A stretch of DNA of 64,000 nt, taken from assembly GCA_977862235.1 (NCBI GenBank), contig OZ374562.1:2728001-2792000 (forward strand). The letters run 5' to 3'. Position 1 is the stretch's first letter. Every line of letters starts with the position of its first letter. Positions 4,708-42,263 of this stretch are shown here, piece after piece. This stretch comes from Dudresnaya verticillata. Its lineage: Eukaryota. Both the position numbers and the translations under genes were made by a program. A model generated the notes under the pieces. That model was not told where the DNA came from and did not search any database. It saw only the letters and a program-made list of their open reading frames with translations.

Positions 4708-4731
4708 GCTGCTGCTGCTGCTGCTGCTGCT
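4708..4731. repeat. (CTG)n microsatellite
   Basis: Direct inspection. Confidence 0.9.
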
Positions 4732-6795: not shown

Positions 6796-6796
6796 T

Positions 6797-7098: not shown

Positions 7099-7741
7099 TG
7101 TAGTAGTATGGCCCGTCAAGGCAGAAACCCGCCAACCGGCAAGGACAGCTGTCCTGACGGTGCACAACACACTAGCTTGGGTAGCTCGGGAAAAGGTTGG
7201 TAGAGACTTTGAAAGGCACAGAGCCTAAGGGAAAAGGGGGAAAAGGGGCGGCGCCACCCAGCTCGCACAGAGCAACCGTCGTGTGGAGGCAAGGCTCGTA
7301 AAGCACCTGAAAGGGAGGTTACGGTGAGTCCGTGAATTCCAGAAAAAGGGTAAAGACCCGACACCCACCGTAGGTTCTATTCAGGAGGCCCCTGCTACTC
7401 AGGGGCCTATTAAGTATACAGAGCCGAAAATGCTCTTACCTCCTATCAGCTATTCTAAGCTATTCTAACTGTCATTATTAATCTAATTGTACTGTTTTCA
7501 GTTATAATTACGGATTAGTGGTAGTACCGCGTCGGGACGCTTGAGCGGCCACAATAAATTACCCAATGGCAATTTGCCATCAATTTTGGTGCCAGCAGGG
7601 ACGCCAGCGAGGCGCATCGCCCTTACAGCGCACGGTGCTTGTGCGCGCCTTACAGCTTGATGCGCGTGGGCGTTTTACACCTTAATGCACACAAATGACT
7701 TACAGTGCGCCAGCACTTCTGCTGCGGCTCATTCTTCCACA
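7099..7741 (-). repeat. 3' LTR of B
   Basis: TGTAGTAGT...TTCCACA; about 97-98% identical by eye to 42264-42897. Confidence 0.92.
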
Positions 7742-7751
7742 CGGCCCCCTC
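7742..7751 (-). promoter_or_regulatory. Polypurine tract of B
   Basis: GAGGGGGCCG on the minus strand abutting the LTR; equivalent at C 19261-19271. Confidence 0.8.
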
Positions 7752-8283
7752 GTTAAGGCTGAGAGACCCGCGAAGCCAGCAAGGCTGTTTCTATTGGCCC
7801 CGTCTTGGGCGAGCTTGAAATCCCAGTGGATTATTGGGCCAACGGTTCACTTGTAACCGCCGCCACTGGTGGCCGGTGTGGAACCGTTCGCAGTAGTGAC
7901 AAATCACTGACTTCGCCGTCCCAGTCTCGACGGCGAACATCTGGCTATTCCGACGACCGGTGTGCCTTCGCGCGGAAAGCCCCAAGCGGCTGCATACTTC
8001 AGCGACATCACAGCGGCTTCCGCTACAGTGTCGTGTGCGCACCCACTCTGCTCACCACCATCTCCAACCATCTCCGCGCCCTGCGCTTTCCCTCCAGCTC
8101 CAACCTACCGCCACGCGGTGCCGTTTTCATTTCGACGCGCCGCGGTGGCTGTGCGCGCGGTCGAGTGCCAGCCTTCGGTCGTTATCAACGGCGCCTTCGC
8201 CTGACATCCACTACCCTATGGCATTGCCGTTCAAGATCTTCGAGGAGAAGTAGTCAGTGTGACTCTGTCGGGAGACTTGTGGG

Positions 8284-10605
8284 ATGAACAACAGCCATAT
8301 GGCTTATGGAGCCGCCGGTTCTAGCAACGGCGTGCTAGGAATCGAGGTCGATGAGATGGGCGTGCCCCTCACTGTCAAGGAGAGCCGCGACTGGAGAGTG
8401 CGCACCGACCTCGCGCATCTCAAAGCGCGTGCTGGCGCTGATCGCACCGACATCCGCCGTCGCGGAGCGCGCCAAGCCCAACGTCGTACTTGGAATACTC
8501 ACGCCCGGGCCCGTCTATCCCCGCTGACGGGTCTTACCCGTCGCCTGCCCGCCCTCGCGGGTCCGTGGCAATGGGACTTAGCGCACCCGCGCTTTCGCCA
8601 TGAAGTGCGCTACACCGCCACATTGTGCGACAAGCTCAACTTCGAGCTGGAGCAGATGCAGAGCGTGCACGACGCTGGGCAGTACGATCTCGGGATGGTT
8701 GCGCACGAGCGCCCACTGATTCGCAGTGGTAGGGACAATTACCCTTACACCATGGCGCGCGTGGTCCGCTGGGACGAGACATCCAACTTCAAATTCGCGA
8801 TGGATAATCCCCAAACGGCCATGCCGTCAGACTTGGTGCGGTTCGAGCACCGTAATCTACATCGCACTGGGTGCTACGTCCCGGCACATTGCCAAGATGT
8901 TACCTCTATCCGTCCCGAGTTGTACAGGGTGAAGTACCCTCAAGTTACAGGAGACCATGCGGAGCTCGAGGTATCTTACTCCATGCCCGTGGGCACTCCA
9001 ACGATCATAGCCTATCTTGGCTTGGAGATGATGGACACCAATACAGACGATAGCGTCTTGTGGCCCATTTTCCGCCACGAGTGGATAGTCTTGGTGACTC
9101 AAGTATTCGTATACGAAGCCCGTCGGGGCTTGTTGTATTTCATCAATGCCCCACTTCGTGCGTCCATCCGCTCCATAGGCTCCGCCGCCTTTACCGCGAC
9201 TTCGGCTGATGCCGACGATTTGGACCAACCCCTGGTCTTTGTGGAACGGATCCGTTGGAGTGGAGTCTCAAAGCGCAACAGGCACTTGCCTGAGAATACC
9301 GGCCACATTACACCGGTATTCGATCGCGGCGACGGGGTCGAGTTTGACGCCGTCAAGTGGAACCCAGTCCTTCCCGACTACTTAATGGCGCCTCTACCCT
9401 CCGAGGGTGAATCGATCCAATTGGATGAAGGCGAACGTCGCACCGGGTACACCAAAGGTTGGGTGAGCGTGCGTTAGCGCGATGAAGGGCCTAAGCACCC
9501 TGATGAGGTGCCCCCCTTCGACGACACTGTCGATGGGGAGCCGCAAGGTCCGTACACTCCAGTGCTGACACACCACTACCGGGCTGATGCCGAGATCCGT
9601 GACCTATTTGGCCGTCGTGGGTTGGCCATCCGCTTGGCTGCCCACTGGGGCATCTTTTCCCTCAACCTTCGTAGTCTTGCTGACTGGGTTGAGGATGTAT
9701 TAGCCGAATATGAGGCTCACTGGATTGGAACCCCGGGCAACATTGCGCGCCTTCTGGCTCATATGGATAAGATGCCCCCGCTTGGGGGGACCGGGGCTAA
9801 GGCGGAGCCGAGGGTCCAAGTTAAGGACGAGACTGGTATCCTGTCTACGAGAGAGCCTGGCTCTAAGGTGCGTCGCGGAGTCGGATATGGTAAGCCGGGT
9901 TCTTCAGCCCAAGGCTCATCTGGAGCCATTCTGGCGCCTGACGCTCGTGAAGCCAATGCGGCTGACGCGTCTAAGATTCCGCGTGAAGAGCCGTCGGCTG
10001 GGGCCTCTACTGAGGGTATAACTGCCGGGCCGGTGGCTGCGGCAGCTATATCGTCCAAGACCGGCGGTCCGGCTCAGCCATCGGCTTCTCGAGTTGGCGT
10101 CCCTCTACGCTCAGTGCTTCCAGGCAACGTGCCTACGCCTAGCGAGGCGCGACTCGGGCCTTTACAGCCGAATCTGTCTGGCACCGGCGAGGCAGTGGAG
10201 GTGACGTCCGGGCCAGGCCCTATAGTGACGCCGTCGCCTATGCCGGCTCAGGCTGAGTTGCCTTCCGCCGGAACCAAGGAGGTTACCACGGAGCCGCTGC
10301 ATGAGGCGTCGAAGCCTACTGACGACGTGCTCATCAAGACGGAGCTGATCCTCAAAGAGGAGGAGGAGTTGGAGGTCAACGAGGGCGGAGGTGCTACACC
10401 TGAAGCAACGCCGATGGACGTTGAGCTTCCAGCCAGTGAGGCTCGTGGTGCCGCAATGGAGGGTATGCGCCGAGGCCGCGGTCCGCGTCGTGGTCAAGGT
10501 CGGCGAATTGTTCGCGAAGTTCGTCGCATCGTGACGGCACGAGCTCCCGCGGCTCCGAATCCGCCGCTTGACGGCGACGAAGTCATTGACCTGCTCTCAG
10601 ATTAA
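8284..10605 (+). pseudogene. Antisense accessory ORF of B (~773 codons, single in-frame TAG at 9475-9477); unknown N-terminal domain, Ala/Pro-rich linker, SUMO/SIM-like tail
   Basis: Track ORFs 8284-9477 and 9508-10605 share a frame; strongly homologous to C 19880-22224; the TAG aligns with a Trp of C. Confidence 0.88.
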
Positions 10606-11621
10606 CTGAACCAGGTTCTTAATGGCTTGAGGCATCGAGCCTAATGGGTTAGAAGCCTATCCCAGCGGCTTAACCGCTTCACAATAAACCTCGTCTTGTA
10701 TGTTTAACCCAACGCCTCTTGTAGACTTCGAGCCTTCACGTCCGATGCCAGTTTCCTCCCTAGTGGGACAGTGGTGCCTTCGCCTGTTCAAGCATCGAGG
10801 GGCAACCTACTATTGGTTGACCAATACGCCTCCACAGCCTCTGTCGCGGCTTGAGAGCGTGACAGCAATGTCAGCAGTTGCTCTACAGTACAAAGCCACG
10901 CACTGTAGCGTATTTTGGCGCGAAAGCCATTAGGGCTTTCAATTGGCCATGCCGTCCCGCCGCCTTGCTGTAGCCCCACCGTGGGCTCTGGTCTCTCGTT
11001 GCAAGCATAATTTGGGTGCCAGTGCCAGGGCTTTACCCATCGCCACTACCACAGGGTAGAGGTCAGCGGCATCGGCTTCAAGCCCGCACGGCCTCCTGAG
11101 TTCTCAGCGTCAATACGCTTCGCGCTTCTCCTCCCATATCAAATGGGGTACGCTTTCCCGCGGTTGTCCCAACCGGGGTGAGAGTCATGGTATCAAGACT
11201 CATGAGTCTAGTTTTGGCGTCTTTTTGGCTTTGCGCCCTCGCGGGGTTTGACGCTAGCGCCCTTTTGGTGGGAGGTAGTTAGCAACCCTCCGGGCTCAAT
11301 ACCTCGTCCAGTTTGCAGCGTCGGCATCGCTTTTTGGCAGCCCAGCTGCCCTTAAGCGCCATCGTGCTGGTAGTTGTTGTCATTATAAATTACAAGTTAG
11401 TCATCGGGGCTGGGAACCACCCACATAGAGGGGGGAAGCTGCCTCCCTAGCTTGGGCCTTTCAGGAGTGTTTCCTTGAGGTAGCCAGGTTTTGGCAACTT
11501 TACCCTTCAAGGTATTAGCCTTACACAGCGTTATTTGCTCCTCGGATAAATGGTCGACTCCTAAGTCCAGAGCGTGCGCTCGCCTTAGCAACACCTTCTT
11601 TTAGAGTTCACCTCTTGATTA

Positions 11622-11740
11622 CATCTATCCATGTTATACATCTATCCATTTCCATGCATCTATCCAGAGTCTTGACTTTTCTTTCATCTATCCATTTCCA
11701 TGCATCTATCCAGAGTCTTGACTCTTCTGTAGCCATCTAT
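11622..11740. repeat. CATCTATCCA motif array including a ~38-bp tandem duplication in the non-coding spacer of B
   Basis: Motif at ~11622, 11639, 11657, 11685, 11703 and partial at 11734. Confidence 0.85.
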
Positions 11741-12021
11741 ATTGCCTCCTCTTTTGAGAGGGTAACCACTGCTTCTGTGCGCCCGGTCATGGGCGAATCC
11801 CACACATAGCCCATAGGCTGCATTCGTATTTACGCGAGGGCGTCGGTTTCGGCACCCAGAACCAAAGTTCTACCTCCACTCATATGAGGTGAATCTTAAC
11901 AATCGGGAGATCTGACTCCATACAGCTTAACTGCTGTTTTTGGTGGGGCGCACCCGATTGAGACCGGTCTCAGTGGCCACTTGTAGGCCCGGTGCCTTAC
12001 TCAGCGCGCGTGCTCGCCACG

Positions 12022-15000
12022 CTAATTGTCAGGGAGAGGTATCCCTTTTTGGCGGTGATACCTTACAACCAAATTGTGAGGGAGATGCCCATTTGGCTCC
12101 CAAGTGTCCTTTGAAGCCGGGCTCTGGAACCACCGCACACGATAAAGGTGTGTGTCGGGGTCATAGGAAACGATCCTTTCGTACACGTGTTCGCGTGGTG
12201 GTGCCTTCTTGAAGCGCGAGAATTTGCGGCTTGACGTCCCTTCAGCCACTGTCGGCGGAGGTGATGACGCATCCACACCCTCATCTCTAGGAGCATTCTC
12301 CTGTCGTTGGGGGACAACAGGCGCGGTATGGGCCCCGCTAGGTTGCGCATCCCCACCTGTGTCAGCCAGTGTCTCACCTTCAGCACCAGGTGCTTCAGGA
12401 TGGGCCGGTTCATTACCGCCTGATGCGGTGTTCATCGAGGGCCCAGTGCCGTTTGTGTTGGGCCCGTCGGTTGGCCCAGTTGGACTACTTGAGAGTGCTG
12501 CACCTGTCTCCGGTGGCATTTCCACTACCGTGGGAGTCATGTCTAGTGCCAGCGGCGCTTCGTGTGGCGATGGATCCAAAGTGACTCGGTCCAAAGAGAT
12601 TGTTTCTCTGTCGCCCTTGATGTCGAGAACCACCAGATGGGTTCCTCTCTCGAGGACCTTATATGGCCCAAGGGCTTTCGGGAACAGTTGCCCTTCCCTC
12701 GCCACGCCTGAAGCGTCCTTCACTTTAGTTTCCCGTTCGAGGAATACCCACGACCCGGGACGTGCCCTTTTGTTAGCCGGTCGAATGCGGCTATTAAAGT
12801 TGGTTTCATAGCGCTTTTGCTCTAGTTGCATCCTCGGCAGAGCCGTATCCATGAGCTTTTCCAGCCGAGCGGTTAGGCGCTTCTTGACGTTCGTAGCGGG
12901 TATCCCGTCAATGTCTACAGTTTCCGCTTGTTCCAGTAGTAGGGAAGTCGGCGGATTTGACAAAACCAAGTCAAAAGGGGCTAACCCTGTAGCGCGATGT
13001 ACTGTCGTATTGTAAGCGTACGTGAGCGCTGAGGTGAACTCGTCCCAGTCCCTCTGATCTTCCGCTATGAAGTGGCGAAGGCCCGCTAGGATGGTGCGGT
13101 TGAACCTCTCGGTTTGCCCATTAGTTTGGGGATGGTATGTCGACGTGAACATATTCCGAATCCGTAGGATATCGCACACGGCGAGGAAGAACTTAGAGGA
13201 AAATTGAGACCCATTGTCTGAAAGGACGTAACGGGGCGGTGCATAGATAAAGACCCAATGGTCACAAAACGCCTTCGCCACTGTATAGGCGGTTACCATT
13301 TTCATCGGTATTGCTCGTGTCAGCTCTGAGAAGCGGTCCGTCATAACCAACAGGAACTCGTTTCCTTTCCCGGAGCGGGGTAACGGGCCCAGTATATCGA
13401 TTCCTACGAACTCTAACGGCATGGTTGCCGGGAAGAGTTTCATCTGCGAAGCATGTTTCCGCAACTTCACCCGCTCTTGCGCGCACTTGACACAATTACG
13501 CACTGTGGCGTACAAATCCAATGCCATCTCTGGCCAATATACCTGTCTTCGTAGGTTATGATACATCCGGGTTCCACCTGGGTGTCCCGCCATCTCGGGG
13601 TAGTGGGCTAGGTGTAACGCCCTTTCCTTAAGAGAATGAGGTATGAGAACCTGTATCGCCTTGTCGATATACGACTTCCGGACTAGGAGTCCTCGTTCGT
13701 CCTCGAGATAGCAACCAGGCTTCCCGGCCTCGAGGTTCCTTCGGACCCAGATACAGAATTCATCTGTCTTCTGCTCACGGAGCAACTCTTCTGTGGTGAT
13801 GAGGGATAGTCCCTTTTGTCCAGATTCCTTCTCGGCCACTTGGGCGATGACCACTTCGTCATCCGAATCGGACTCATCGACGGGTTCGATTTCCCATACT
13901 TCCAACGGTCGCGTGTTGGGCTCCGGTCGCGACCTTTCGCAGGGTTCGTCCCTCGGATCAGTCTCGAGGACTAGACACGGGATTTCCAAGTCCGGTTCCC
14001 ATGGCGTGAAGCCATACGTAGGCAGCCGAGATACGGCATCAGCAATCTGATTCTTTTTTGCCTTTTCGGTACTGGACCGTGAAGTCGTATTCCAGAAGGC
14101 GTAATCTCCAACGGGCCAACCGTCCAGAAGCATCTGTCATGCTCATCATCCATTTCAGCGCTTGATGGTCTGTATACAGGTCAAAGTGGGACCTTTCTAA
14201 ATATGGTCTGAGCAATTGTGCCGCCCAGACCACTGCGAGGCACTCCTTTTCACCTACAGAATAATTCTTCTCTGCCTTCGTCAGTCCTCGGCTCCAGAAG
14301 CCTATTGGGTGTCGAGTCCCGTCTTCTTCGGCTTGCATCAGCGCGCAACCAATTTGGTAGTCGCACGCGTAGGTATCCACCGATAGGGCCTTACCCTCTT
14401 GTGGCAACCTAAGAATAGGAGGCGCTATTAGCGCTGTCTTCAGCAAGTCGAACGCCTCGCGCTGACGTTCATTGAACTGTGGCAGTTCAAAGCCCACTTC
14501 CTTCTGAAGGAGGGCATTGAGCGGAGCTGCCACGCGAGCGAAGTTAGGCACGAATCGCCTGTAGACGTTGCATAGACCGATGAAAGACCGCAACTGGGTC
14601 TGGGTGTTCGGCTCCTTGAATCCTTCGATGGCTTGCGTATTCTTAGTCGCCACTTCTAATAAACCCGGACGGATGACGTGCCCTAAGTAGTCGACACTCT
14701 TTGTGAAGAAGTTACACTTCTTCAGTTTCAAGGAGACCCCTGCTTCTTGTAATACAGCGAGAATCTCTCTTACATGCGTGACATGCTCGTCGACAGTCGC
14801 GGAGAATACGATAATATCGTCGAGGTATACGAGGCACGACTTCCATCGAAATCCTAATAAGAGGATGTCAACCGTTCGCTGAAAGGTCGCCGGAGCGTTG
14901 CATAGCCCAAAGGGCATCCTGCAAAATTGGAAACAGCCCGCGTGGCATGTAAAAGCAGTCTTATGCTTATCCGCCGGGGAAACCGGAATCTGCCAGTAGC

Positions 15001-16546
15001 CTGAGTTGCAGTCCAAGGTCGTGAAATATTGGGCTTCGCCCAAATTGTCCAGACACTCGTCCATGCGTGGCAGAGGATATGTATCCTTCACTGTTATCGC
15101 GTTAAGCTTGCGATAGTCAACGCAAAAGCGGAGTGACCCGTCGGGCTTCTTAACCAAGACGACGGGGCTCGCAAACTCAGAGCGTGCAGGCTCTATAACG
15201 CCTTCTTTGAGCATTTTGTCGACCTCATCCTGTTTTGCTTGACGGGCTTAGGGCCCGACCGATACGGTTGCGTAAACACAGGTTTCGAACCTTCTTGAAG
15301 CTCAATACGGTGTTCGGTCACCTTAATGGTTCCGATTTGTCCGTCCCATATACCGGCGAACGGTTTAAGCATTTTGCGCACGCGACGCCGATCCGAAGTG
15401 GACAGGTGTTCCAGCGCGAGGTCATCGACCGTAATAGCGGTTGTCGCTGATGTCGCGATTTTGATTCCAGGCTTAGAGTCTATATCCGTCTTCAGAGCAG
15501 CAGCAAGCCCCGCCCCCCCTACATCGGAAAATGTTTCGGACGAGGGAAGCGTGTCACTGTCAGGAACATTATCCTCGATGGAGACAGTGTAGACCGGCGT
15601 CTGTGTGGGTGCCGGTACAGCCTTTCCAAGGCTTTGATTCTTGGAAAGCCGTTGAGGACGCGAAGAAAAGTTCGCGACCTTGACGTGAAAGAGCCGGTTC
15701 TCTTGAATGTTGACGATTCCATTCGTCAACACGACTTGTCGGCGCTCGTATAAGCGGGGTAGGGATTCCAGGAAATGTGTTCCTTTGGCGGAACAGGTAA
15801 CAGGAACCCATGACTCACTGCCGGGCAGTAAGGTAGTAGTTTGTGCGACGCGAAGGAGTCGCGAGGTAGGTAACGGGGGAACGTCCATTGGTTCGTTAGA
15901 CCTGCCCTCACGGGGTATACCGCATCGGCGGCGTGGAATTGGGTGAATGGACCCATCGCGAAGAACCATGTTCTGTTGGCGGACGCGTAACCCTTCCACG
16001 TGGGTATCGATAAACGTGCAACCCAATATGGCATCTACTGCCAATGCCCTTACGACAACAAAAGGTTGCCGAACCGTGTAGGACCCGAGCCTGATTATTG
16101 GGGAGACTGTTCCCAGTGTAGTTAGACGGTGACTTGACGCAGAGGTCAAGTTCACAATTGACTGCGTTGTAGAAATCTGTTTCTTGTCTTTCGGTGATAG
16201 AACATCCGCGCGTATGAGATTAGGGCCTGCCCCTGTATGCAGTACGGAGAGCACACGAGTAAGATCGTCAACAGAAGTCCCGATGGACGCAGCTACTTTA
16301 TAATTGTAGCGCGACAAGGAGCAAACGGGATCCTTACAATACTCGTGATACTTCCGTCCGGGGGGTAAGCCCACGGCACGCGCTAAGATCTTCTTGGGAA
16401 GAGAAGTGACAGATTCACTAACAACCGGTCGATTCGTTGATGAGAAGCTTTCGAAGCTGTAGCTCGAGGAGCTGGATTCAACGCACCGATCGGGGGTTCC
16501 GATGTCACCTGGGATATGTGGTGTACCGAAACCGGTTCCCCCCTCG
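12022..16546 (-). pseudogene. pol: Pol of B (PR-RT-RH-IN-chromodomain), frameshifted
   Basis: VLHTGA (catalytic Asp replaced by His), YLDD, EKECLAV, GHPG..CVKC, HPQTNGQTER, GPY, YRVRW..DTWEP. Confidence 0.93.
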
Positions 16547-18667
16547 CTAGTTTTTTGCCTTCATTGCGGGCGACCGCGGTAGCGGTGGAGGTGGTGGAAA
16601 GGGACGAGGCCCTTGGCGTGGTGACCTGGGCGTTTGCCTCGGAGCGTCGATGGGGTGGTTCAGTCGAGGTTGAAATTGAACCTGTCGATTTCCCCCTTGA
16701 CTTGCACCCAAATTTTGACGGGGATCCATCCGTTGCCCCATGGGCGGCCCGGCGGACACTCGCTCATTAGCGAACTCCGGCAGTCGGCCAACTGTCGCCA
16801 GCCACGCTTTTTGCTCGTGTGATAGTTGATGAAACTGTCTTCTTTTTAAAGTCTCAAAAGACTGCTCATCGGTTCGAGCCAAATGCGGACAGTTGGGCTT
16901 TTTATAGCCAATGCCGTAGCATTCGAAGCAGATATCATTGGGTTGCTATTCAACCGTCACCCACCCAGGGCGTTGAGACCTGGTTGGCTGTGCCCAGGCT
17001 GGGAGCCTATTATTGTAGTTCTGCAGTACCACGTCAACTTCACCGTGATACGGTTGGTCGTAGCAATACTGTGTCGACCACGAATCCGATTGGGTCGCGG
17101 TTGATGGTGGCGCTTCGTTAGCGATGGCAGCCACGACTGCGTCTTCGCTTTCCGCATCAGAGCTGCTGCTCTTTGAAGTATCCGAATCGGAGGCGGATGC
17201 ATCCTTCGCCTGGCGAATTAGGAGCGCCCGCCCTGACTTGTGGGTACGAACCTTCTTTAAGGTCCTCCATGGTAGCGTCCTAGTCGCTTTTGGCGTTCGT
17301 CCGCCACCCACTAGCGCCCGATGGGAATCTCCCTGCGCAGTCGTGAGCTCGACGTAATCCGCCAGTCTGGCCGTCCTTGGGTCCAATGACGACGTACTTA
17401 AAAGCGGCTTCACCACTGGTAACAACCCCCGAATAAACCTGGTTATCAAGTCTTGTTCGGTGTACACCCCAGCGACTCGACGCGCTTTGTTCTTCAACCT
17501 TCTCGAAAAGGTTACTTCGTCCTCATCTGGCTCCTGCGCCATGGTGTCCATCTCAGAGGCAATCCTCTCAATATAGACGTCCTTGGCATATGTCCGAAGA
17601 AGGTAATTCACGGCTTCGGGCCATTCGGTGAAACCACCATTGTCGTCACCCGCAGCGTCAAAATTCGCTTCAAACATATCCTTCGCATCCTTCTCGAGGA
17701 ACTCGGGGATGACGAGGATAGCGGCACCTTCGCTGATATGGGCTTGATCGAGCTGCCTCTTAAGCGTGGCTAAGAAGCCAATAATTGACACCGGGTCACT
17801 CCCGTCAAAACGGCGACTCCGCATAACGTACTTCACACGTTTGATTTTCTTCGTGGTCGCCTCGGTCACCTCGGGCCCGCGGTAATCATCCAGGTTCAAT
17901 AACCTATATCTTCTATAGGACAGTACCTGTATGAAGGCGGGATTCCTAGGAGTCAACTCCTTCACACCTGACCGTCGGGGACCCCTCCAGGAACACCATG
18001 ACGGTCTAGAATGCGAACGGGAACCCGGTCCTTCTTCATCCGAGGGACTCGGATTAGGGTGAGACCCTGACCGAGGATTCTCCTCGTGACTATGGCTTGA
18101 ATATCTGTCACGATGAGAATCAACTTGGTCGCGGTGTGCAGAAGACCCAATTGGTCTGGTGCACTTGCAACCCTGTTGGCAACGGCCTCCATCTCCTTCA
18201 CCTTGGGACCCACTGTCCGACCCCCTATGGGGTAGCCTCCTACGCCTATCGCGCGTACCGCGAGGCACTGGTGAGCGCCGTCTCATGACTTCAGGGATAT
18301 TATCCCTCTCGCGGATTACGCGCCGCATCTGCAATTCCAGAAAAGCGACACGACGCTTCTACTCATCGAGTTCTTTCCTTAGGACCTCGATGGCTCTGTC
18401 CTGTTCAACGCACCGTGCGTTGTCTACGTTAAATTGAACGTCCGCAATAGCCATTGCGGCTTCTGTCCTGGAAAGGTCGGCAGCCTTCGTGGTTTCATCT
18501 AATTCAAGATGAACCGATTCCAACTGGTCCCCCATTGAGTCCACTTGGGCTTGTAGGGTCTCGACCCTTTCCTCTTCTAAACCCCTCAAGGGGCGTGGTT
18601 GGCAACGAGAATTGACCATTTCTTGGCACTTAGCCAGTAGCTGGTCGTCTCGACGCGCGGTGGCGTC
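16547..18667 (-). pseudogene. gag: Gag of B, main part (5' part displaced by C and D)
   Basis: LSYRRYRL, FDGSDP, YLLRTYA, decayed zinc knuckle near 16890-16935, ends KN*. Confidence 0.88.
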
Positions 18668-19260
18668 TGTAGCACAACGGGTCCAGCCCAGGAAGAGAAA
18701 AAAGAACAAAGGACACCTGTCCGGAACCGTCGTGCTCATAGGTAGCTCGGGTGTGGTAGAGGCTTGATAGAATGGCGCTAGGCCAGGAAAAAGGAAAAGG
18801 AAAAGGGGGACGCGACCCGGTATTCCGCAGGGAACCTGCCGTACGGTGACGAGCCTGTAGTTGGCGTCCAAAACGGGAAGCGCCCGGAATCCAGAAAATG
18901 GTCAAGACCGATAAACGCCCCGTGGGGTTCAATCAGGGGTGCCCTACTATTCAGGGGACCAATAAATAGGGCTTTTGCCCGTGCTAATACTAACTACTAC
19001 AGTGTACTGTACACGAATTACATTGATCAATGGGAGGCGGATCTACGCCCCTGTGGCGGCGTATAATCGGGAAATATCCCAACGCCGCACCAATGATCAG
19101 GCGCCAATTGCGCGTCTGAGGCGCAGATGACTTCGCGCCAGGCGCCAATCACGTGTCGCATCATGGCGCAGTCCAGCAATGCCAGTGCCTTACAGGGCAT
19201 TGGCCCGTTACGACTTACAGCGTCGAGCGCCCACTTGGCGCAAATCGCCGTTGTGCCACA
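18668..19260 (-). repeat. 3' LTR of C
   Basis: TGTAGCACA...TGCCACA; repeated at 30710-31307. Confidence 0.95.
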
Positions 19261-19879
19261 CGGCCCCCCTCGTAAGACCGAGAGTCCCCGCGAGGTCTGA
19301 GCCGTTTCTGTGCCACAGTTTCCAATTTTCATTGGCGTTCCGCCAGATTTGTCGGGCCAAAGCCGGCGCAGCGTAACGTTGCGACTGGGACGCCGTCGAC
19401 GAGAAGTCCCGCACTCTGAGCCAGCGCTCCAAAATCGTGAGCGTATATCAGGGTGTGTACCCGCGTCGGCGCAAGGTGTTGGTGCACCGGCATCCGCCAC
19501 AACTCTTGCGCGCCTGCTGCATCATCGTCCTCAAGCGCTGCAACAGCTCCCTGCCGACCTTCGCACCGGGTGCGCGTCGTCTTTCTTCCGAAGGTTCTCG
19601 GCGTGGGCGCCGTAGCCCTAGCTTTCGCATCGCCGCGCCTGGCGCTGCTGTTCGGCGTCGGTGTCGTCGTCGGTGGCGAGTGGTAACCGCATTTGTGCCA
19701 CGTCGCGCCGTTGCGCCCTCGGTGTTGCCAGAACCAACCCCGTCGAGGGGTGCGTGAGCGCAGCGAATCTCTGCCTGCTGGCCGCTGCGTGACCGATCGT
19801 CCAAGTGAAGGAAGAAGAGTTTTGGGCAGGGCCCTTTCAAGTGGAAGCACTCAAGCCGGAGCCCGTGCTCGTCATCACG

Positions 19880-22224
19880 ATGCCAGTGAATCCCAGCTTC
19901 CACTATGGGCAAGCCGGGTCGTCCGATAACGTGGCGCCGGTTGCTGTGGACGCGGGAGGGGTCCCTGTTGACATTGCGGCTAGCCGCGATTGGCGTGTAC
20001 GCACGGACCTAAACCATGTGCGACCCCGCGCGGGGGCGAACCGCGACGAAGTGCGCCACCTAGGCGGGAAGAGGGCGGAAGCCAAGGCTTGGAATACCCT
20101 ACTGAGGGCCCGTGTGAGCCACTTATCGTTTACGACTCTGCGCATTTCGACGCCGGGGCCATTCCCCTTTGATTTGACACGCGCCCGATATCGGTGGGAG
20201 GTCCCTTGGATTGAGAAGATGGCCCGTTTCATGGGCGAAGAGAAGTATGTGCTTGACGAGGTATTTGCTCCGAGGGCTATGACCTGAGGGCAGTTGGCCA
20301 TCCGCGCCCTTTCATCCGGGCAGGCAGGGACAATTTCCCGTACAACACAACCAGGATCACGCTTCCCAACAACCGCACCACCTATAAATACCATTTGGAC
20401 ACGCCGCAGACGGCTCTTCCCCACGAAGCTGCTCGCTTTGAGCGTCGCCAGAGGCACCGCACCGGGTGCCTGGTCCCGTTCCACTGCCAGGAGGCAACCG
20501 CTATTAAGCCGGAGATGTTCATAAGCAAGTACCCGCAGATCCCTCCGGATTACGGGTATTACGAAGTCTCGTACTCGATGCCCGTGGGGGTTCCGACCGT
20601 GGTGGCCTATCTCGGCTTGGAGCTGATGCAGTCCTCAAGTAACAGTTTGCTGTGGCTCAGCTACAGGCACGAACGGATCGTCCTCATCACCCAGGTCTTC
20701 ATGTACGAGGCGCGGAAGGGCCGCCTATTCTTCATCAACCAGAAGATACGCGATGATATTCGCGAGATAGGCTCGTCGGAGTTTACGGCTAATGCCGATG
20801 ACGCAGTTGACCTGGACTCGCTCCTACTCTTTGTCGAGCGTATCGTCTGGCGACGAGTGTCGAAGAAAAGCCGGTTCTTGCCCGCAGATACGGGCACTAT
20901 CACACCGGTGTTTGACCGCGGGGATTGGGTCGACTTCGACCCCGAAGCCTGGGCTCCCGACATTCCCGAAGATCTGATCAAATCCGTTCCAGTGGATGCT
21001 CACTCAATCGAGGCGGACGAAGGCATGCGTCTGCGGTCCGGTTTCACCGCGGGGTGGGTTTGTAACAACTGGCACAAGCCGAAGACTCCCGCTGAGGTGC
21101 CCGCGTATGACGCGCTTACCGATGGTCAGCCGTTAGGCCCGTACGCCCCGTCGGTGGTCCATGGGCGAAGCAAGGCCGATGCCGTAATTCGCAAAGTCTT
21201 TCGTCAGCGTGGTTTGACCGTGCGCCTCCATACCCATTGGAACATCCAGAACTTAACGGTCAATTCCCTGGCGGATTGGGTCGAGGCGACCATTGTCGAC
21301 TACGAAGCCTCTTGGCTAACAGTACCAGGCCCCATCCATCGGAGGTCGGAACATTTCCGGGGCTTGCCCCGTTTGGGCGAACAAGCCAAGGAGGAGCGAG
21401 AAGCGCCTGTCGCGCGAGAGGAGTTGGCCAATCCTGCGACCGGTGTGGCCCCGGCGGCACCTACAGCCATCGTTGCCGGCCCGGTGGGAGCCGCGTCGGC
21501 GGCTCCTGTCGGAGAGACCCGACTTAGGGGTCGTCATGGTATCGGCTCAGCGGGGCGTCGTGCCCGTCAGGAGGAGGAGATAGCGCAAGGCTTGGCAATT
21601 CAGGGCGTCACCATTCCTGGCAATAGGGGGAATGCCCCACTTGCGGCGAGGCGCGATGGTCGCGAGGATGACGCGGTAATGGCGTCTCTTCCGCCGGCTT
21701 CGGAAGCTGCCCTTGGGGCAACCCCGTCTCAACAGCCGACAACAGCGGCGGCAGCAACGGCACCGGCCAGCGAAAGGGATGAAGAGCGGATTGAGCCGGC
21801 GACTCCCGCGGCGCCGCCTACTCCAGCGTCCACTTCATCCCCTGGGTCAGTGGTGATGTCTTCCCCACCGACGGGTGAGGCGCCGCCGTCACTACCTATT
21901 GAAGGCAACGCGGCGTCCGGGCCTGGCCCGATCGAGGCTGACTCAGTGCAACTCGTCTCGAATACAGCAGCAGTGGACAGCTCCAGGGTGTTGCCGGATG
22001 AGGAGTCGCAAGTCATGCAGGAAGAAGGCGGGGGCCTGGTTAAGACCGAGCTCGTCATTAAGGAAGAGCTCGAAGAGGACCCAACTCCTATGGAAACGGA
22101 CCCCGTTCAGCCGCGAGTGCGTCGCATCATCCGCGAAGTGCGGCGTATCGTTCACCCGGTCGGTGCCGTGCGTCCAGCTAACGTGGAGAACGACGAAGTG
22201 GTTGACCTGACGGAGGATGAGTAG
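19880..22224 (+). pseudogene. Antisense accessory ORF of C (~780 codons, one frameshift near 20270)
   Basis: Starts MPVNPSFHYG; after the shift reads GYDLRAVGHPRPFIRAGRDNFPY, matching B QYDLGMVAHERPLIRSGRDNYPY; ends EVVDLTEDE*. Confidence 0.88.
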
Positions 22225-22979
22225 ACTCCCATCCTCCTGTTGCTCATTAGGGCGTTGAGCCCAAGAAGTTAGTGCGGGTTTGCCGCGTAGAAGTTAATGT
22301 CTGTGCATGAGTTAAGAATAAAAGTCACTGTTGACGGGGGAATTCGCCAAGCTAATGGCTGCCGCCAACATCGGTTGGGTTAGTGTTGAAGTTAAAGTGC
22401 GCGTCGTGCGCGAGTTAGCCTCGTTGGTTTGTACAGTAGGCCAGGGGCCTCAGCCTTGTTCCAGCTTCTTGGCATAGGAAGTGAGCCTCCACCCCGTGAC
22501 ACCTGCACCGTTTGGCAGAGAGAGAGAAGAGGGCAATTATCCTCGGATGCCAAGCGTAGCGGCGAACGGGTCGAGAACGCCCCTAGCGTCGCGTCGAGGC
22601 CAGCCTCAAAGGCAGGCAGCTTGCTGCCTTCCCCCTTCGCAGTGGGGATGGAGACAGTTGTTTCCAAAACGATGCTTGGCGTACGTGCGCGTACAATATT
22701 CGGTATCATACCGTCGCCAGACAGTGTCCTTTCCCACTTGAGATATTACTCCGCTCGCTGTACGGCCACAGTACGCCCAACGGCACCAGTTGCCAGCACT
22801 GTGCTATTTTGGCTTACACATCGGCCCGTGGCATCGGACGGTGCCGCCTCGTGTGTCGCCTCGCACTGTATCAGGCCGTGAAGCAAAAAGGGGGCGTTGA
22901 GGCCGAGATGGTAATCCGTCTACCGCCAGGCGCTTGCCAACTCCTGTCCCAACGGGGGAAGCTATGTCGCATACGCGAG

Positions 22980-25900
22980 TTAAAGGGGAATGCCCCGTTT
23001 GCGATGGTACCTCGCCACGAGGTTGTGAGGAAGGTTCTCCCGGGGTTCCCACGTGTCGTCAGAGGCCGAGCGCTGGTGCCAGCGGAGCTTATACCGTGCT
23101 GACTCAGGGTCATAGGACATGATCCGATCATAGACGTGCTCCCGCGGAGTAGGGCGCTGATAGCGCGAGAAGCGGCGCTCCGTTGGCGAAGTCTCAGGCC
23201 CTTGCGCAGGGCTTTCGCTCTCGACGGCGGGAGGAGTGGCGTTAGTGGGCTTCGCCGGTCCCGGCTGTAGTGCGGTCAAGGGCACGGTTCCCGCTTCGAT
23301 GGGGCCTGGCCCAGTAGCCGGATTCGCCTCCATGATAGTAGGGGCTTCACCCCGAGCATCCAGCGGCTCGTCAGGGGGAGGCGCTAGCGTTACCCTGTCT
23401 AGGGAGACTGATTCCCGTTCGCCCTTGACTTCAAGGACCACAACGTGCGTGCCACGATCCACCACCTTATATGGGCCTAGCGCCTTAGGAAACAGTTTGC
23501 CTTCGCGATCCACGCCATCCACGTCTTTCACCCGAGTCTCGCGCTCTAGGAACACCCCGCTGCCAACTCGAATATTCCGGTTCGCAGAGCGGACTCGTCG
23601 GTTGAAGTCCGATTGATAGCGCTTCGGCGCGAGCCTCAAACGGGGGAGAGCGGTGCCCATCAATCGCTCCAATCGCTCTGATAAGCGTTTCTTGACGTTA
23701 TTCGCGGGGAAATTAGCAACTTCCACCGTCTCGGATCGCTCCAGGAGCAGGGCGTTCGGGGGATTTGAGATCACCAGATCGAAAGGGGATAGCCCCGTGG
23801 CTTTGTGCACCGTAGTATTGTACGCAAACGTGAGTGCGTTAGAAACTCATCCCAGTCACGCTGATTCTCAGCGATGAAGTGCCTTAGCCCGGCTAGAATG
23901 GTGCGATTAAAGCGTTCGGTCTGGCCGTTACTTTGCGGGTGATATGTAGACGTAAATAGATTACGTACTCGCAGAATGCTGCAAATGTTCACGAAGAACT
24001 TCGAGGCAAACTGGGACCCATTGTCCGATAGCACATATCGCGGAGGTCCATATACATAGGCCCAGTGGTCGCAGAAGGCCTTAGCGACGGTATAGGCCGT
24101 AATCATCTTGAGCGGAACAGTCCGGGTTAGCTTTGAGAAGCGATCCGTGATCACGAGTAAATACTCATTTCCCTTGCTTGACTTGGTCAATGGACCTAAA
24201 ATGTCGATTCCGACAAACTCCAAAGGAGCCGTGGTGGGGAAGAGCTTGAGGAACGAAGTATGCTTCCTCAGCTTGACTCGTTCTTTCGCGCATTGGACGC
24301 AATTCCGAACGGTTGAGTAGACGGCCAAGGCCATATCTGGCCAATACACTTGCCGGGTTAGGTTGTGAAACATGCGGGTTCCTCCTGGGGAAGAGCTTGA
24401 GGAACGAAGTATGCTTCCTCAGCTTGACTCGTTCTTTCGCGCATTGGACGCAATTCCGAACGGTTGAGTAGACGGCCAAGGCCATATCTGGCCAATACAC
24501 TTGCCGGGTTAGGTTGTGAAACATGCGGGTTCCTCCTGGGTGGCCAGCTAGGGCCGGATAATGGGCCAAATGTAGCACCTTTCTCGAAGGGTCGCGGGTA
24601 TGAGAACCTGTATGGCTCCATCCACGTAAGCTTTGCGGGCGAGGAGCCCTCGTTCGTCTTCCAAGTAACACCCGGGGCTTCCCATATCAAGGCGCTTCTG
24701 CACGTCTTGGCAGAACGAGTCTCGTTTTTGCTCTCGGAGCAGCTCCTCTACAGTTACTTGTGAGACACTTGCCTCGTCGGCTCGCTTCTCCGCCGCGGTG
24801 GCGATGAGTATCTCGTCCATGTGACTGTAATCCTCGAGGGGTTCGATGTCCCACGCCTCTAGGGGCTCTATTTTGGTGGGTCTATCCGTGAACAACATTG
24901 TCTCCGCTGAAGTCATCCGGTCTGGACCGTCTTCCTCTTCGGCTATGAAGCAAGGTATCTCGAGATCAGGCTCCTTGTGGGTATGACCCCATGTCGGGAG
25001 GCGAGACACCGCGTCGGCAATCTGGTTCTTACGCCCCGTCCGGTATTGGACCGTAAAGTCATATTCCAAAAGGCGAAGCCTCCATCTCGTCAAGCGTCCT
25101 GAAGCGTCAGACATACTCATGATCCAGCGTAACGCTTGATGATCCGTGAAAAGATCGAAGTGAGACCGTTCCAAATAGGGTCGCAATATCTGTAATGCCC
25201 ATACGACGGCGAGAAACTCTTTCTCTCCGACTGAGTAGTTCTTCTCAGCTTTCGTTAGCGAACGGCTCCAGAAACCAATAGGGTGTCGATCACCGTTCCC
25301 ATCGGTCTGCATCAGGGCACATACCACTTGATAGTCGCACGCGTCGGTGTCGACTGATAATTGGCGTCCCACTTGCGGCAGTTGGAGTATGGGCGGAGCC
25401 ACGAGTGCTTTCTTCAGAAGCGAGAAGGAATCTCTTTGTTCCTCATTGAACGTCGGGAGGTTGAAATCCACTGTCTTCTGCAGTAATGCGTTAAGCGGCG
25501 CAGCAACTCTCGCAAAGTTGGGCACGAACCGTCTATAAATGTTGCACAAGCCAAGGAAAGAGCGTAGCTGCGTTTGCGTCTTTGGTTCCCTAAACCCGTC
25601 GATGGCCTGTGTGTTCTTCGAGGCGACCTCCAGGAGGCCAGGGCGGACCACGTGTCCCAGATAATCGACGCTCTTCGCGAAGAAGTTACATTTCTTCAAC
25701 TTCAGCGATACTCCTGCGTTCTGGAGCACCTCCAGGATTTCCTTTACGTGAGCAAGGTGCTCTTTGACGCTTTTGGAGAAGATGATGATATCATCCAGAT
25801 ATACCAAGCACGAATTCCATCTGAATCCAGACAGGAGAATGTCGACCGTTCGCTGGAACGTGGCTGGTGCATTACATAGCCCAAAGGGCATGCGGCAAAA

Positions 25901-27497
25901 TTGGAAGCATCCAGCGTGACAAGCGAACGCCGTCTTCGGCTGGTCTTCCTTGGCGACCGGTATCTGCCAGTAGCCATAATTACAATCAAGCGTTGTGAAG
26001 AATTGGGCATCTCCCAGAGAGTCCAGACACTCGTCCATACGAGGCAAAGGATAAGAATCCTTGATCGTTACTGCATTAAGCTTTCGATAGTCGACGCAAA
26101 GGCGTAAGGAGCCATCAGGCTTATTGACCAGCACGACTGGGCTCGCGAATTCCGACCGCGCGGGTTGTATGACCCCTGCTTCCAACATCTTGGCTACTTC
26201 CGCTTGTTCAGCCTGTCGAGCTTTGGGACCTGCCCTATAGGGTTGTGAGAAGACGGGCTTCGTCCCTGGCTTGAGCTCGATATGGTGCTCAGTGACTTTG
26301 ATAGTCCCGAGTTTACCACTCCACATTTCCGAGAATGGCCGGAGCATCTTGCGTACTCGACGCTGATCCTTTGGTTCCAGATGTGAAAGGTTTAGGTCTT
26401 CGACCGTCATGTTGGCGACCGAGGCCTTAATGCCGGGTTTTGGATCCGTATCCGGAGAGAAAGCAGCAGCAAGCCCTGCCCCCCCACATCGAGCGACGGC
26501 TCGTCGGGTTCGTGAGGAGCAGATGGGGCGTCCTCGAAGGACAGAGCGTAAACTGGGGTTGTGGAAGGAGCCGGAATGGCGTGTCCAATCTTCTGGCGTT
26601 TGGCCAGGCGCTTCGGGCCTTGAGAGAAATTGGCCACCTTGACCCGGAACGGCCGGTTAGGTTGCACGTCGATGATGCCATTTGTGGCAACTAGACCCTG
26701 TCGGTCGTAGAGCCGCTGGAAGGAATCCATGAAGTGTACACCTCGCGCCGGACACGTGACCGTGACCCATGCTTCTGACGCCGCTGGTATAACAACCGAA
26801 TGTGCCACGCGCAGGTGTCGCGGTTCGGGAGGACCTGTGGGGACCTCTTGTGATTCCTCGGGGCGCGAACCGCGGGGAAGTCCGCATCGTCGGCGTAATA
26901 TCGGGTGTATGGACCCATCACGCAAGACGGCGCGTTGACGCTTGATTCTCAAGTTATCGATATGGTGGTCGATGAAGGTACAACCCAGGATCACATCCAC
27001 GGCGAGTGCTTGGACGACGATGAAAGGTTGTCGGACCGTGTAGGTTCCGATTCGAACGTACAGGGAGATAGTCCCTAAAGTAGTTAGTTTGTGCCCTGAG
27101 GCTGAAGTTAGATTCACGATGGACCGCCCAGAAGCGATCTTCTCTTGATCCTCCGAGGAAAGAGCACCAGCTCGTATGAGGTTGGGGCATGCCCCTGTAT
27201 CCAGGACCGAAAGGACGCGAGAGAGTTCGTCAAGAGAGGTCCCAATGGACGCTGCCACTTTATAGTTATATCGCGACAGCGCGCATATGGGATCCTTACA
27301 ATACGCATCAAAAGTGCGTCCTCGAGGAAGCCCTAGAGGGCGAGGTAAGATCTTCCTTGGGAGAAGGTTTGCATCGGATTCTGGTTCCGGCCGATCCGGG
27401 AATGACGGGGACGGGTGGCCGTCCTCGCTCGATCGGTCGGGGGACCCCGGGTCGCGTAGCAAGAGCTGCGATTCGACGGGGTCCAAGGTCCCCCAGT
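22980..27497 (-). pseudogene. pol: Pol of C (PR-RT-RH-IN-chromodomain), frameshifted
   Basis: VLDTGA, YLDD, DACD, HPQSNGQTER, GPY, YKLRW..DTWEP. Confidence 0.93.
24239..24540. repeat. 151-bp tandem duplication inside C integrase
   Basis: GAAGAGCTTGAGGAACG...CCTCCTGGG present twice with period 151; TGGG microhomology. Confidence 0.93.
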
Positions 27498-30690: not shown

Positions 30691-30708
30691 TTCTAGGTCG
30701 GGAGACCA
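30691..30708 (-). promoter_or_regulatory. PBS of C (TGGTCTCCCGACCTAGAA), probably tRNA-Tyr
   Basis: Adjacent to the 5' LTR; identical 18-mer in B and D. Confidence 0.85.
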
Positions 30709-30709
30709 G

Positions 30710-31307
30710 TGTAGCACAACGGGTCCAGCCCAGGAAGAGTAAAAAGAACAAAGGACACCTGTCCGGAATCGTCGTGCTCACAGGTAGCTCGGGTGTGGTA
30801 GAGGCTTGGTAGAATGGCGCTAGGCCAGGAAAAAGGAAAAGGAAAAGGGGACGCGACCCGGTAATCCGCAGGGAACCTGCCGTACGGTGACGAGCCTGTA
30901 GTTGGCGTCCAAAACGGGAACAGGAAGCGCCCGGAATCCAGAAAATGGTCAAGACCGATAAACGCCCCGTGGGGTTCAATCAGGGGTGCCCTGCTATTCA
31001 GGGGACCAATAAATAGGGCTTTTGCCCGTGCTAATACTAACTACTACAGTGTACTGTACACGAATTACATTGAGCAATGGGAGGCGGATCTACGCCCCTG
31101 TGGCTGCGTATAATCGGGAAATATCCCAACGCCGCACCAATGATCAGGCGCCAATTGCGCGTCTGAGGCGCAGATGACTTCGCGCCAGGCGCCAATCACG
31201 TGTCGCATCATGGCGCAGTCCAGCAATGCCAGCGCCTTACAGGGCATTGGCCCGTTACGACTTACAGCGTTGAGCGCCCACTTGGCGCAAATCGCCGTTG
31301 TGCCACA
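30710..31307 (-). repeat. 5' LTR of C
   Basis: Repeat of 18668-19260 with ~10 substitutions and 2 indels by eye. Confidence 0.95.
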
Positions 31308-31367: not shown

Positions 31368-32024
31368 GCCAATACGCTCTTGCGGGCCGCAGGCGTCGAC
31401 CCGAGCGACCCGAGCGGCTCGCCCTCGGATTGGTGGGCTCGCGTCTTGGCGACGGTCCCAACTTCGGCAGCAACGCCTGTGCGGGGGTCAGCAGCTCTGC
31501 CGGTTATGGCGCCTAGTGGCGGGAGCGCGGTGGGCTCTTCGTCTACGACGATGCCTTCCAGTGGCGAAACGCCTACGGCGAGCAAGGTTTCCCCGACGTC
31601 GTCGACGGGGGAAATTCCCGGAGCGCCGAAGGCGATCATTTCGGAAGTTGCGCCAAAGGCGGTTAGCATTCCGAAGACGCCTGGGGCGAAGGACAAGGAT
31701 GTCTTGTTGACGCCTAAGGCGATTGCATCGCGCTCAACGCCGGTGGCGGAAGGGGCTTTGGGGTCGCCGAAGCCGGTGGCCGCAACAGTTGTATCTACGC
31801 CCAAGGCGACTGACCAGTCCGATACCTCGCCCAAGGCGCAAGTGGATGCCACAGCCAAGGCGGCGACGGTGGCCGGCGCCTCGCGGCCCGCGGCCACGCC
31901 GCCTTGTCCAGCTCCTACGTCACCGACAGATGATGATGGCTACGAGGCGGCTCTTCGCAAGTCCGCCGAAGGCGACGAGGCGGAAAGCCTTGGTACGCCG
32001 AAGGCGGCTGAAGGTAGCGGTTGA
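31368..32024 (+). pseudogene. Probable 3' remnant of an antisense ORF of D (Ser/Thr/Pro/Ala-rich, repeated xPKA)
   Basis: Open + frame at the position equivalent to the B/C antisense ORFs; APKA, TPKA, SPKA, SPKP repeats. Confidence 0.5.
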
Positions 32025-40500: not shown

Positions 40501-40606
40501 ATTTGTTTCGAAGAGGTAGGCGAACGTCGTGAACGATGGGCAGAACGTCAGGGTGACGGTTAAGCGATCGTCTCACAGACGTTAAAGTTCGTAGATACGT
40601 AGCAGC

Positions 40607-40624
40607 TTCTAGGTCGGGAGACCA
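40607..40624 (-). promoter_or_regulatory. PBS of D (same 18-mer as B and C)
   Basis: TTCTAGGTCGGGAGACCA on +, 2 nt from the LTR terminus. Confidence 0.85.
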
Positions 40625-40626
40625 GT

Positions 40627-41461: not shown

Positions 41462-41756
41462 TAGGGTCCGGACCCTCATTCGCACCGATATTGGCGGTGC
41501 TTGCGGCTGCAGTCCGGACCGTATTTTCTCCTTCAGGGATCTGTCCCTTTCCATGGGCAGACGGGTCTTCGTCTCCTGGTGCGCCCGCCATTCGGGGCAG
41601 GCGTTCCACTTCTCCTACTGTAGGACCTCGAGCCAAACCGGCTATTACAGCACGGGTTCTTGCTCCCGTGGTCCTCACGGAGGATAAGCTGCCGGTACGG
41701 CTACCAAACCGGCTTGTTAACCCTGGGCGGGTGGTCTTACCGTTAGATGTCGGCAT
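41462..41756 (-). pseudogene. gag: N-terminus of B gag
   Basis: MPTSNGKTTRPGL..SLSSVR is homologous to C MPTSNGDTTRPSL..SLSSVR. Confidence 0.8.
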
Positions 41757-42244: not shown

Positions 42245-42262
42245 TTCTAGGTCGGGAGACCA
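42245..42262 (-). promoter_or_regulatory. PBS of B
   Basis: TTCTAGGTCGGGAGACCA, 1 nt from the LTR. Confidence 0.85.
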
Positions 42263-42263
42263 C

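What the first reader, a model, noticed from the sequence alone, without database searches (positions are those of the whole stretch)
8284..22224. Conserved large antisense gene carried by two divergent Gypsy elements (B and C)
Seen: B (8284-10605) and C (19880-22224) each carry a ~770-780-codon ORF opposite to gag-pol, between integrase and the 3' LTR. Each is broken by only one lesion. Their LTRs are largely unalignable, yet the first ~480 aa are clearly homologous: RDWRVRTDL in both; HRTGCYVPAHCQ/HRTGCLVPFHCQ; EVSYSMPVG(T/V)PT; TQVF(V/M)YEAR(R/K)G; ITPVFDRGD; SLADWVE. Sampled differences are synonymous (B GAG GTA TCT TAC TCC ATG CCC GTG GGC vs C GAA GTC TCG TAC TCG ATG CCC GTG GGG). Known: antisense extra ORFs occur in some plant Tat/Retand-type Gypsy elements. 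I recognise no env, Transposase_28 or PMD-type signature here. Inference: a selected accessory protein of a chromovirus-like lineage, possibly undescribed.
Basis: partly seen in the sequence, partly recalled or inferred. Interest (0 to 1): 0.9.

Follow-up and report, generated by a model that had tools for sequence, protein, structure and literature searches.

The report
Backward-facing retrotransposon gene, unknown protein fold
Two distantly related retrotransposons each carry an extra, backward-facing gene kept by selection; its protein belongs to a large unnamed family with a confidently predicted fold that matches no solved structure, and it likely works in the nucleus to help the element escape host silencing.

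Summary
Gypsy elements B and C each carry a ~775-codon ORF antisense to gag-pol, between integrase and 3' LTR, with one lesion each, about what decay after insertion predicts. Over 470 codons they are 52% identical while synonymous sites are near saturation, so selection is clear. Both leaders are depleted of ATG on that strand only (1 vs 9.8 expected), and AATAAA follows both stops. A ~330-aa N-terminal domain defines a family of at least 247 clusters at 50% identity. None of the 150 retrieved passes a Pfam cut-off, and none of 30 clusters looked up is named. The model is confident (pLDDT 86; core 92) but has no structural match (best Z 2.7). No membrane segment: not env. Best reading (0.45): a nuclear accessory protein, likely counter-silencing; this step is inferred. 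The layout is known (Retand, Grande, Boty); the protein appears undescribed. Host, expression and the genomic context of the homologues are untested, and it could be the red-algal transposon gene PAG1.

The parts
7099..7741 (-). 3' LTR of element B
   Evidence: 97.8% to 42264-42897 over 635 bp; ends at the PPT
7742..8283 (+). B: PPT (on - strand) and likely 5' leader of the antisense mRNA
   Evidence: 1 ATG vs 5.1 expected on +, 8 vs 6.4 on -
8284..10605 (+). Antisense ORF of B, 773 codons, one in-frame stop at 9475-9477
8356..9399 (+). Family domain in B (about residues 25-372), predicted compact and mainly helical
   Evidence: profile search, conservation, models
9790..10605 (+). Low-complexity tail of B, with a conserved end: two [VI]KxE-like sites, an Arg-rich stretch and a C-terminal [VI][VI]DL-acidic motif
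   Evidence: the SUMO-site and SIM labels are recalled
10683..10688 (+). AATAAA 78 nt after the B stop, candidate poly(A) signal
12022..18667 (-). B gag (3' part)-PR region-RT-RH-INT-chromodomain, broken in several places
   Evidence: Pfam, ORF list
18668..19260 (-). 3' LTR of element C, inserted in B gag (flanks GCGTC / ACGTC)
   Evidence: 97.2% to 30710-31307; flanks; B gag continues on both sides
19261..19879 (+). C: PPT (on - strand) and likely 5' leader of the antisense mRNA
   Evidence: 0 ATG vs 4.6 expected on +, 7 vs 5.0 on -
19880..22224 (+). Antisense ORF of C, about 780 codons, one frameshift between 20203 and 20278
22317..22322 (+). AATAAA 93 nt after the C stop, candidate poly(A) signal
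22980..30121 (-). C gag-pol with chromodomain, several breaks
30691..31307 (-). C primer-binding site and 5' LTR
31386..32024 (+). Open low-complexity frame downstream of the integrase of a third element, D; possibly the remnant tail of an antisense ORF (unproven)
   Evidence: position; no significant similarity to the B or C tails
33245..41461 (-). Element D (gag-pol with chromodomain, same PBS, 5' LTR about 40628-41461), inserted in B gag; its 3' LTR is missing
41462..42897 (-). B gag 5' part, 5' leader, PBS and 5' LTR (cut 8 bp short at 42897)

Best explanation
Elements B and C each carry a selected antisense gene whose protein is likely a nuclear accessory factor that helps the element escape host silencing. 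Shown: the ORF, its position, purifying selection, a conserved ~330-aa domain and a low-complexity tail. Inferred: it is transcribed as its own polyadenylated mRNA from a promoter in or next to the 3' LTR. Predicted: the domain folds as one compact, mainly helical unit with a conserved basic helix. Inferred from motifs and analogy only: that helix would bind the element's DNA or RNA, while the tail would bring the protein into the nucleus and engage host chromatin factors, perhaps through SUMO in B and C.
For: Selection: pN 0.34 vs pS 0.73; ML dN 0.39, between RT (0.11) and close to gag (0.31), dS saturated, 2dL = 240 against omega = 1. One lesion each matches 0.81 and 0.88 stops expected from LTR divergence, so both ORFs were probably open at insertion. 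Own mRNA: 1 ATG in the two leaders vs 9.8 expected, 0 of 3000 shuffles, strand-specific, as in the gag leaders (2 vs 7.4); AATAAA 78 and 93 nt after the stops, in 3' regions that do not align. Family: 247 clusters at E <= 0.001, median core identity 26%. Soluble: best 19-residue hydropathy 1.28; 1 of 150 homologues reaches 2.0. Helix 182-195 has net charge >= +2 in 84% of 106 rows. Basic NLS-like runs in 21 of 80 tails vs 8.6 in shuffles, max 18. B and C keep [VI]KxE and [VI][VI]DL motifs in a divergent tail. Precedent: Grande GENE23 is nuclear with its own antisense promoter (PMC7264820, main text); VANC is a transposon anti-silencing protein (PMC13547354, passages).
Against: No direct evidence on function, location or expression. 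No similarity to VANC, PMD or TRP28 was found by Pfam. SUMO-type motifs are not family-wide: psiKxE in 8 of 80 tails vs 5.5 expected; SIM-like in 4-6 of 80, two of them in related proteins. Residues 200-370 are net acidic (mean -3.3), not typical of a DNA-binding domain. B and C themselves have no match to the NLS pattern used. That the homologues lie in retrotransposons is not shown: no DNA context was obtained. The AATAAA test was chosen after seeing the motif, and local shuffles give P 0.03 and 0.07.
Confidence: 0.45

Rival explanations
1. The protein acts later in the cycle, like retroviral Rev or Vpr: it binds the element's RNA or the pre-integration complex and helps export, packaging, nuclear entry or target choice together with the chromodomain integrase.
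For: Conserved basic helix and basic N-terminus; soluble; Vicient and Casacuberta propose such roles for antisense ORFs (PMC7264820).
Against: A separate antisense transcription unit suggests expression independent of the genomic RNA, which suits an activator acting before the element is on (inference). No interaction evidence.
Confidence: 0.25
2. The domain is an enzyme of unknown chemistry, for example one that modifies or cleaves nucleic acid to counter host defence.
For: Several charged residues are highly conserved across 122 aligned rows: D98 88%, E107 87%, E188 89%, R192 94%, E229 95%, D350 83%. Red-algal transposons carry DNA-modifying accessory genes (bioRxiv 2025.02.11.637652, passages).
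Against: No column is invariant in 122 rows; the His and Cys candidates are kept in only 39 of 112 and 31 of 113 rows.
Confidence: 0.12
3. The gene is a mobile accessory cassette shared with DNA transposons and already named, such as PAG1 of red-algal Plavaka elements. This is compatible with the best explanation but would lower novelty.
For: PAG1 has no InterPro or HHpred domain and PAG genes move between TE families (bioRxiv 2025.02.11.637652, passages). The window's long uninterrupted ORFs and 55% GC would fit a red seaweed (recalled, untested).
Against: The passages read name DNA transposons and Fanzor elements as carriers, not LTR elements. No PAG2 or PAG3 neighbour was seen in B or C.
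Confidence: 0.1
4. A captured host gene riding as a passenger, with no role for the element.
For: The context of the homologues is unknown, so host copies cannot be excluded.
Against: Kept at the same place while synonymous sites of both ORF and pol saturated. None of 30 clusters has an NCBI or UniRef source or a name. Clusters hold near-identical variants and split copies, as repeats do. Transduced genes are usually in sense (PMC7264820).
Confidence: 0.05
5. An env-like or movement protein.
For: Position between pol and the 3' LTR.
Against: Antisense orientation; no hydrophobic segment in B, C or 149 of 150 homologues.
Confidence: 0.02

Closest known systems
Retand/Tat antisense ORFs (TRP28 = Transposase_28), Grande GENE23, RIRE2 (PMC11963269 abstract and sections 3, 12; PMC7264820 main text)
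   Same: Antisense ORF between pol and 3' LTR, conserved about as well as gag, function unknown; GENE23 is nuclear with its own promoter.
   Different: Those are non-chromodomain plant elements; B and C have a chromodomain and no second RNase H. No TRP28 or PMD hit here.
Boty antisense gene of Botrytis/Sclerotinia (cited in PMC7264820; original paper not seen)
   Same: Non-plant Gypsy element with an antisense ORF at the same place. That Boty bears a chromodomain is recalled.
   Different: Sequence could not be compared; fungal proteins would normally carry NCBI or UniRef sources, which none of 30 clusters here has.
REM1 of Chlamydomonas (PMC2774666, passage; original not held)
   Same: Algal chromovirus with a reverse-oriented 3' ORF.
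   Different: REM1's reverse ORF is an integrase remnant with GPY/F and chromodomain (a PHD finger is recalled). B and C keep a full sense integrase, and their antisense protein has neither domain.
VANC of VANDAL DNA transposons (PMC13547354, passages)
   Same: Working model: folded domain made by the element that counters silencing.
   Different: VANC is PMD/MAIN-derived and on DNA transposons; no sequence match here; anti-silencing is untested here.
PAG1 of Plavaka elements (bioRxiv 2025.02.11.637652, passages)
   Same: Transposon accessory gene with no recognised domain.
   Different: Reported on DNA transposons; homology could not be tested.

Membership tests
Ty3/Gypsy LTR retrotransposon | LTRs, PBS, PPT and order gag-RT-RH-INT | tested here: met
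Antisense 3' extra ORF (aORF-3R) class | Long ORF opposite to gag-pol between pol and 3' LTR, conserved across elements | tested here: met
Antisense 3' extra ORF (aORF-3R) class | Antisense transcript from its own promoter | tested here: inconclusive
   indirect signals only; no run was listed
Chromovirus | Chromodomain at the integrase C-terminus | tested here: met
   C 27 bits (cut-off 25.1), B 18.2 bits (below), D 39.2 bits
Chromovirus | RT/RH/INT phylogeny within the chromovirus lineage | not testable with these tools
   no reference RT set on hand; chromodomain Gypsy lineages exist outside chromoviruses
Tat/Retand | No chromodomain; additional RNase H domain | tested here: not met
   chromodomain present, one RNase H hit per element; definition from PMC6317226 sections 9, 13
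TRP28 (PF04195) / PMD (PF10536) / Athila ORF1 accessory proteins | Pfam profile match | tested here: not met
   none in B or C pieces; 0 of 150 homologues pass any cut-off
TRP28 (PF04195) / PMD (PF10536) / Athila ORF1 accessory proteins | Remote homology by profile-profile or fold | tested here: inconclusive
   no HHpred library or AlphaFold DB on hand; these families may lack solved structures
env-like ORF | Sense orientation and transmembrane segment | tested here: not met
VANC-type anti-silencing protein | Sequence-specific loss of silencing on its own element | not testable with these tools
   needs experiment
PAG1 (Plavaka accessory gene) | Sequence homology to PAG1 | not testable with these tools
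   sequence not in the passages read; supplements not seen

The most novel reading that the evidence does not exclude
An old, widespread and unrecognised family of retrotransposon accessory proteins with a new fold, hidden by repeat masking, that serves as a VANC-like anti-silencing factor for LTR retrotransposons and reaches host chromatin through a disordered tail.
Probability: 0.27. Interest if true: 0.86.

Novelty: new variant of a known kind. Interest (0 to 1): 0.66.

Why it matters
What antisense extra ORFs of LTR retrotransposons do is an open question; the reviews read call their origin and function unknown and their sequences heterogeneous (PMC7264820, PMC6317226). Here is one with a deep family, a confident model and naturally full-length members, so localisation, binding and structure can be tested directly. 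A compact ~330-residue domain with no Pfam or structural match is of interest in itself. If it counters silencing, it would extend a mechanism shown for VANDAL DNA transposons to retrotransposons.

Tried and rejected
No genome is held for the window. No sequencing run was listed; that says nothing on expression. Word-based protein searches found 1, 0 and 1 proteins; only the full HMMER scan showed the family. Context of homologues: two metagenome scans (97 and 216 pattern matches, none confirmed), three viral scans, and one prokaryote scan whose single 30-residue hit, L001, failed the family profile (E 0.29). Phage tblastn: none. PHROGs and NCBIfam: 0 of 12 homologues. PDB by sequence: best E 0.61 with the 3-row profile, none with 122 rows. 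Fold searches: Foldseek PDB best E 2.8 and 1.9, viral best E 1.2, VIA-align best Z 2.5 (rmsd 7.3, 112 aligned) and 2.7 (rmsd 7.1, 103 aligned) among 48,161 chains. A missing match does not prove a new fold; residues 1-170 and 398-500 were not modelled alone. Homodimer job: no answer, fold uncertain without the alignment. The Atlas gave no result. Rfam: none in 6700-43000. D's + strand tail is no closer to the B or C tail than shuffles (172 and 114 of 200 reach the score), so a third copy is not claimed. A family-wide SUMO link was considered and not supported. The first tail test used a profile that included tails and kept only 3 tails; one search replaces it. The opposite-strand frame in the same register has 10 and 11 stops, so the ORF is no shadow of another gene. 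Earlier findings: nothing.
Full report
Observation. The window holds a stack of LTR retrotransposons. B has LTRs at 7099-7741 and 42264-42897 (97.8%), and C at 18668-19260 and 30710-31307 (97.2%). Both have gag-RT-RH-INT-chromodomain on the - strand, the same primer-binding site and similar PPTs. C sits inside B's gag, whose reading continues on both sides; a third element, D, also interrupts B's gag and lacks its 3' LTR. On the + strand, B has 773 codons at 8284-10605 with one stop (9475-9477), and C has about 780 codons at 19880-22224 with one frameshift.

Selection. Over 470 aligned codons the proteins are 51.7% identical, with nucleotide identity 0.62/0.69/0.38 by codon position, pN 0.34 and pS 0.73. 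A codon model gives dN 0.39 with dS unbounded and rejects omega = 1 (2dL 240); gag gives dN 0.31 and RT-RH 0.11; the tail gives omega 0.19 (2dL 25). Because dS is saturated, omega is only bounded (about 0.17 or less). Neutral simulations aligned the same way never came close (0.39 at best, at least 4 stops, n = 200). LTR divergence predicts 0.81 and 0.88 nonsense changes after insertion, so single lesions are what decay of an open gene would give.

Signs of an own mRNA. Between PPT and start codon the + strand has 1 ATG in 1161 nt against 9.8 expected (0 of 3000 dinucleotide shuffles); the - strand of the same DNA and the spacers are not depleted, while the gag leaders are (2 vs 7.4). AATAAA follows the stops by 78 and 93 nt, although the 3' regions do not align; this test is weaker (P 0.007 and 0.014 with whole-spacer shuffles, 0.03 and 0.07 locally) and was chosen after the fact. 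No RNA evidence could be obtained.

Family. One distant hit seeded a three-row profile that found 247 clusters at E <= 0.001 among 1.84 billion representatives, 118 at 1e-10. I worked with the 150 listed. A profile of B residues 25-372 matches 149 of 150, and 77 cover the whole domain. Median pairwise core identity is 26%. B and C are sisters in a tree of 120 of 122 rows, 24-37% identical to their nearest relatives. The usual build is domain first, then a low-complexity tail (80 tails of 100 aa or more). No homologue passes a Pfam cut-off; the only hit is a sub-threshold phage E2 match in P0102. All 30 clusters looked up come from ENA, Logan or JGI assemblies, unnamed. One cluster has eight further members 97.7-99.3% identical to its representative, four of them the same full length; another holds a gene split in two. 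That suits a masked repeat, but many samples of one host would look similar. The DNA around the homologues was not obtained, so their place in retrotransposons is inferred from B and C alone.

Structure. AlphaFold2 with 122 rows models B 1-397 at pLDDT 86 and pTM 0.87; the core 170-380 with 132 rows reaches 92 and 0.87. The fold is mainly helical with long ordered loops and many conserved Trp, Pro, Arg and Glu. Searches of solved and viral structures gave nothing above noise (see Tried and rejected). There is no hydrophobic segment. Helix 182-195 is basic in 84% of 106 rows, while residues 200-370 are net acidic. No column is invariant and no metal-binding set is family-wide.

Tail. B and C share a C-terminal block within divergent sequence: two [VI]KxE-like sites, an Arg-rich stretch and a terminal [VI][VI]DL-acidic motif (score 91 vs at most 51 in 500 shuffles). 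From recall these resemble SUMO sites and a SUMO-interacting motif. Across 80 tails, basic runs are enriched (21 vs 8.6), SIM-like motifs barely (4 vs 0.2, 6 vs 0.8 with a shuffle maximum of 6), and psiKxE not at all (8 vs 5.5).

Mechanism. Shown: a selected, soluble, element-borne protein. Inferred: separate antisense mRNA, nuclear location, and binding to the element's nucleic acid with the tail recruiting host factors. I favour counter-silencing (0.45) because a gene with its own antisense unit can be expressed while the element's main promoter is off, and because the nearest functional precedents are nuclear (GENE23) or anti-silencing (VANC). A Rev/Vpr-like role (0.25) and an unknown enzyme (0.12) remain open.

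Comparison with print. Antisense ORFs at this place are known in Grande, RIRE2, Retand, PvRetro13 and fungal Boty, function unknown (PMC7264820, main text). In Retand 97% of clusters encode TRP28 (PMC11963269, abstract and two sections). A plant survey found extra ORFs typical of non-chromoviruses and split into 314 Gypsy groups (PMC6317226, passages and sections 9, 13). REM1's reverse ORF is an integrase remnant (PMC2774666, passage). Ten literature searches listed no paper that describes this family, judged from listings and the passages read; the library lacks most subscription journals and Repbase. PAG1 of red-algal DNA transposons also has no known domain and could not be compared (bioRxiv 2025.02.11.637652, passages; supplements not seen). 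The supplements of PMC6317226 listing extra-ORF groups were not read and may bear on novelty.

Verdict. A real, selected gene. The arrangement is a known kind; the carrier (chromodomain Gypsy with an intact-type integrase) and the protein family, with no sequence or structural match found, appear new. The host is not identified; a red seaweed is a guess from recall. Function is untested. New variant of a known kind, interest 0.66.

Noticed in passing
window 7099-42897: Nested stack: B sits in the 3' LTR of element A; C and D both sit in B's gag; D lost its 3' LTR with about 60 codons of B gag; B's 5' LTR is cut 8 bp short.
   Followed up: partly
window 30691-30708, 40610-40627, 42245-42262: B, C and D share the primer-binding site TGGTCTCCCGACCTAGA. 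From recall it fits a tRNA-Tyr 3' end rather than tRNA-Met; no tRNA gene in the window.
   Followed up: no
window 31386-32024 (+): D's open frame is rich in Ala/Pro/Ser/Thr with repeated [ST]PK motifs, 1.2 kb past the integrase stop, where B and C have their tails; both strands are open here.
   Followed up: partly
window 12022-12230, 22980-23190, 33245-33490 (-): D's chromodomain keeps the aromatic residues recalled for the methyl-lysine cage; B and C appear to lack two of them.
   Followed up: no
window 4241-5530: Element A (+ strand Gypsy, 179-7100) has about 1.3 kb between RNase H and integrase with two (TGC)n arrays and an acidic low-complexity stretch; no Pfam scan was run on it.
   Followed up: no
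window 52567-59882: A Copia element with 1033-bp LTRs that are 100% identical and an unbroken 1453-codon frame, inserted in an AIG1-type GTPase gene (51416-52566 and 59883-60965).
   Followed up: no
window 24235-24540: Exact 151-bp tandem duplication inside C's integrase; real duplication or assembly artefact.
   Followed up: no
window 43955-44623, 48184-49608, 63257-64000: Likely host genes: a GT2 glycosyltransferase piece (PF13632), an uninterrupted 474-codon frame without Pfam hit, and a Cys-rich secreted-looking protein.
   Followed up: no
window 7000-43000: AATAAA occurs 11 times on the + strand (5 in LTRs) and never on the - strand, the sense strand of B, C and D.
   Followed up: no
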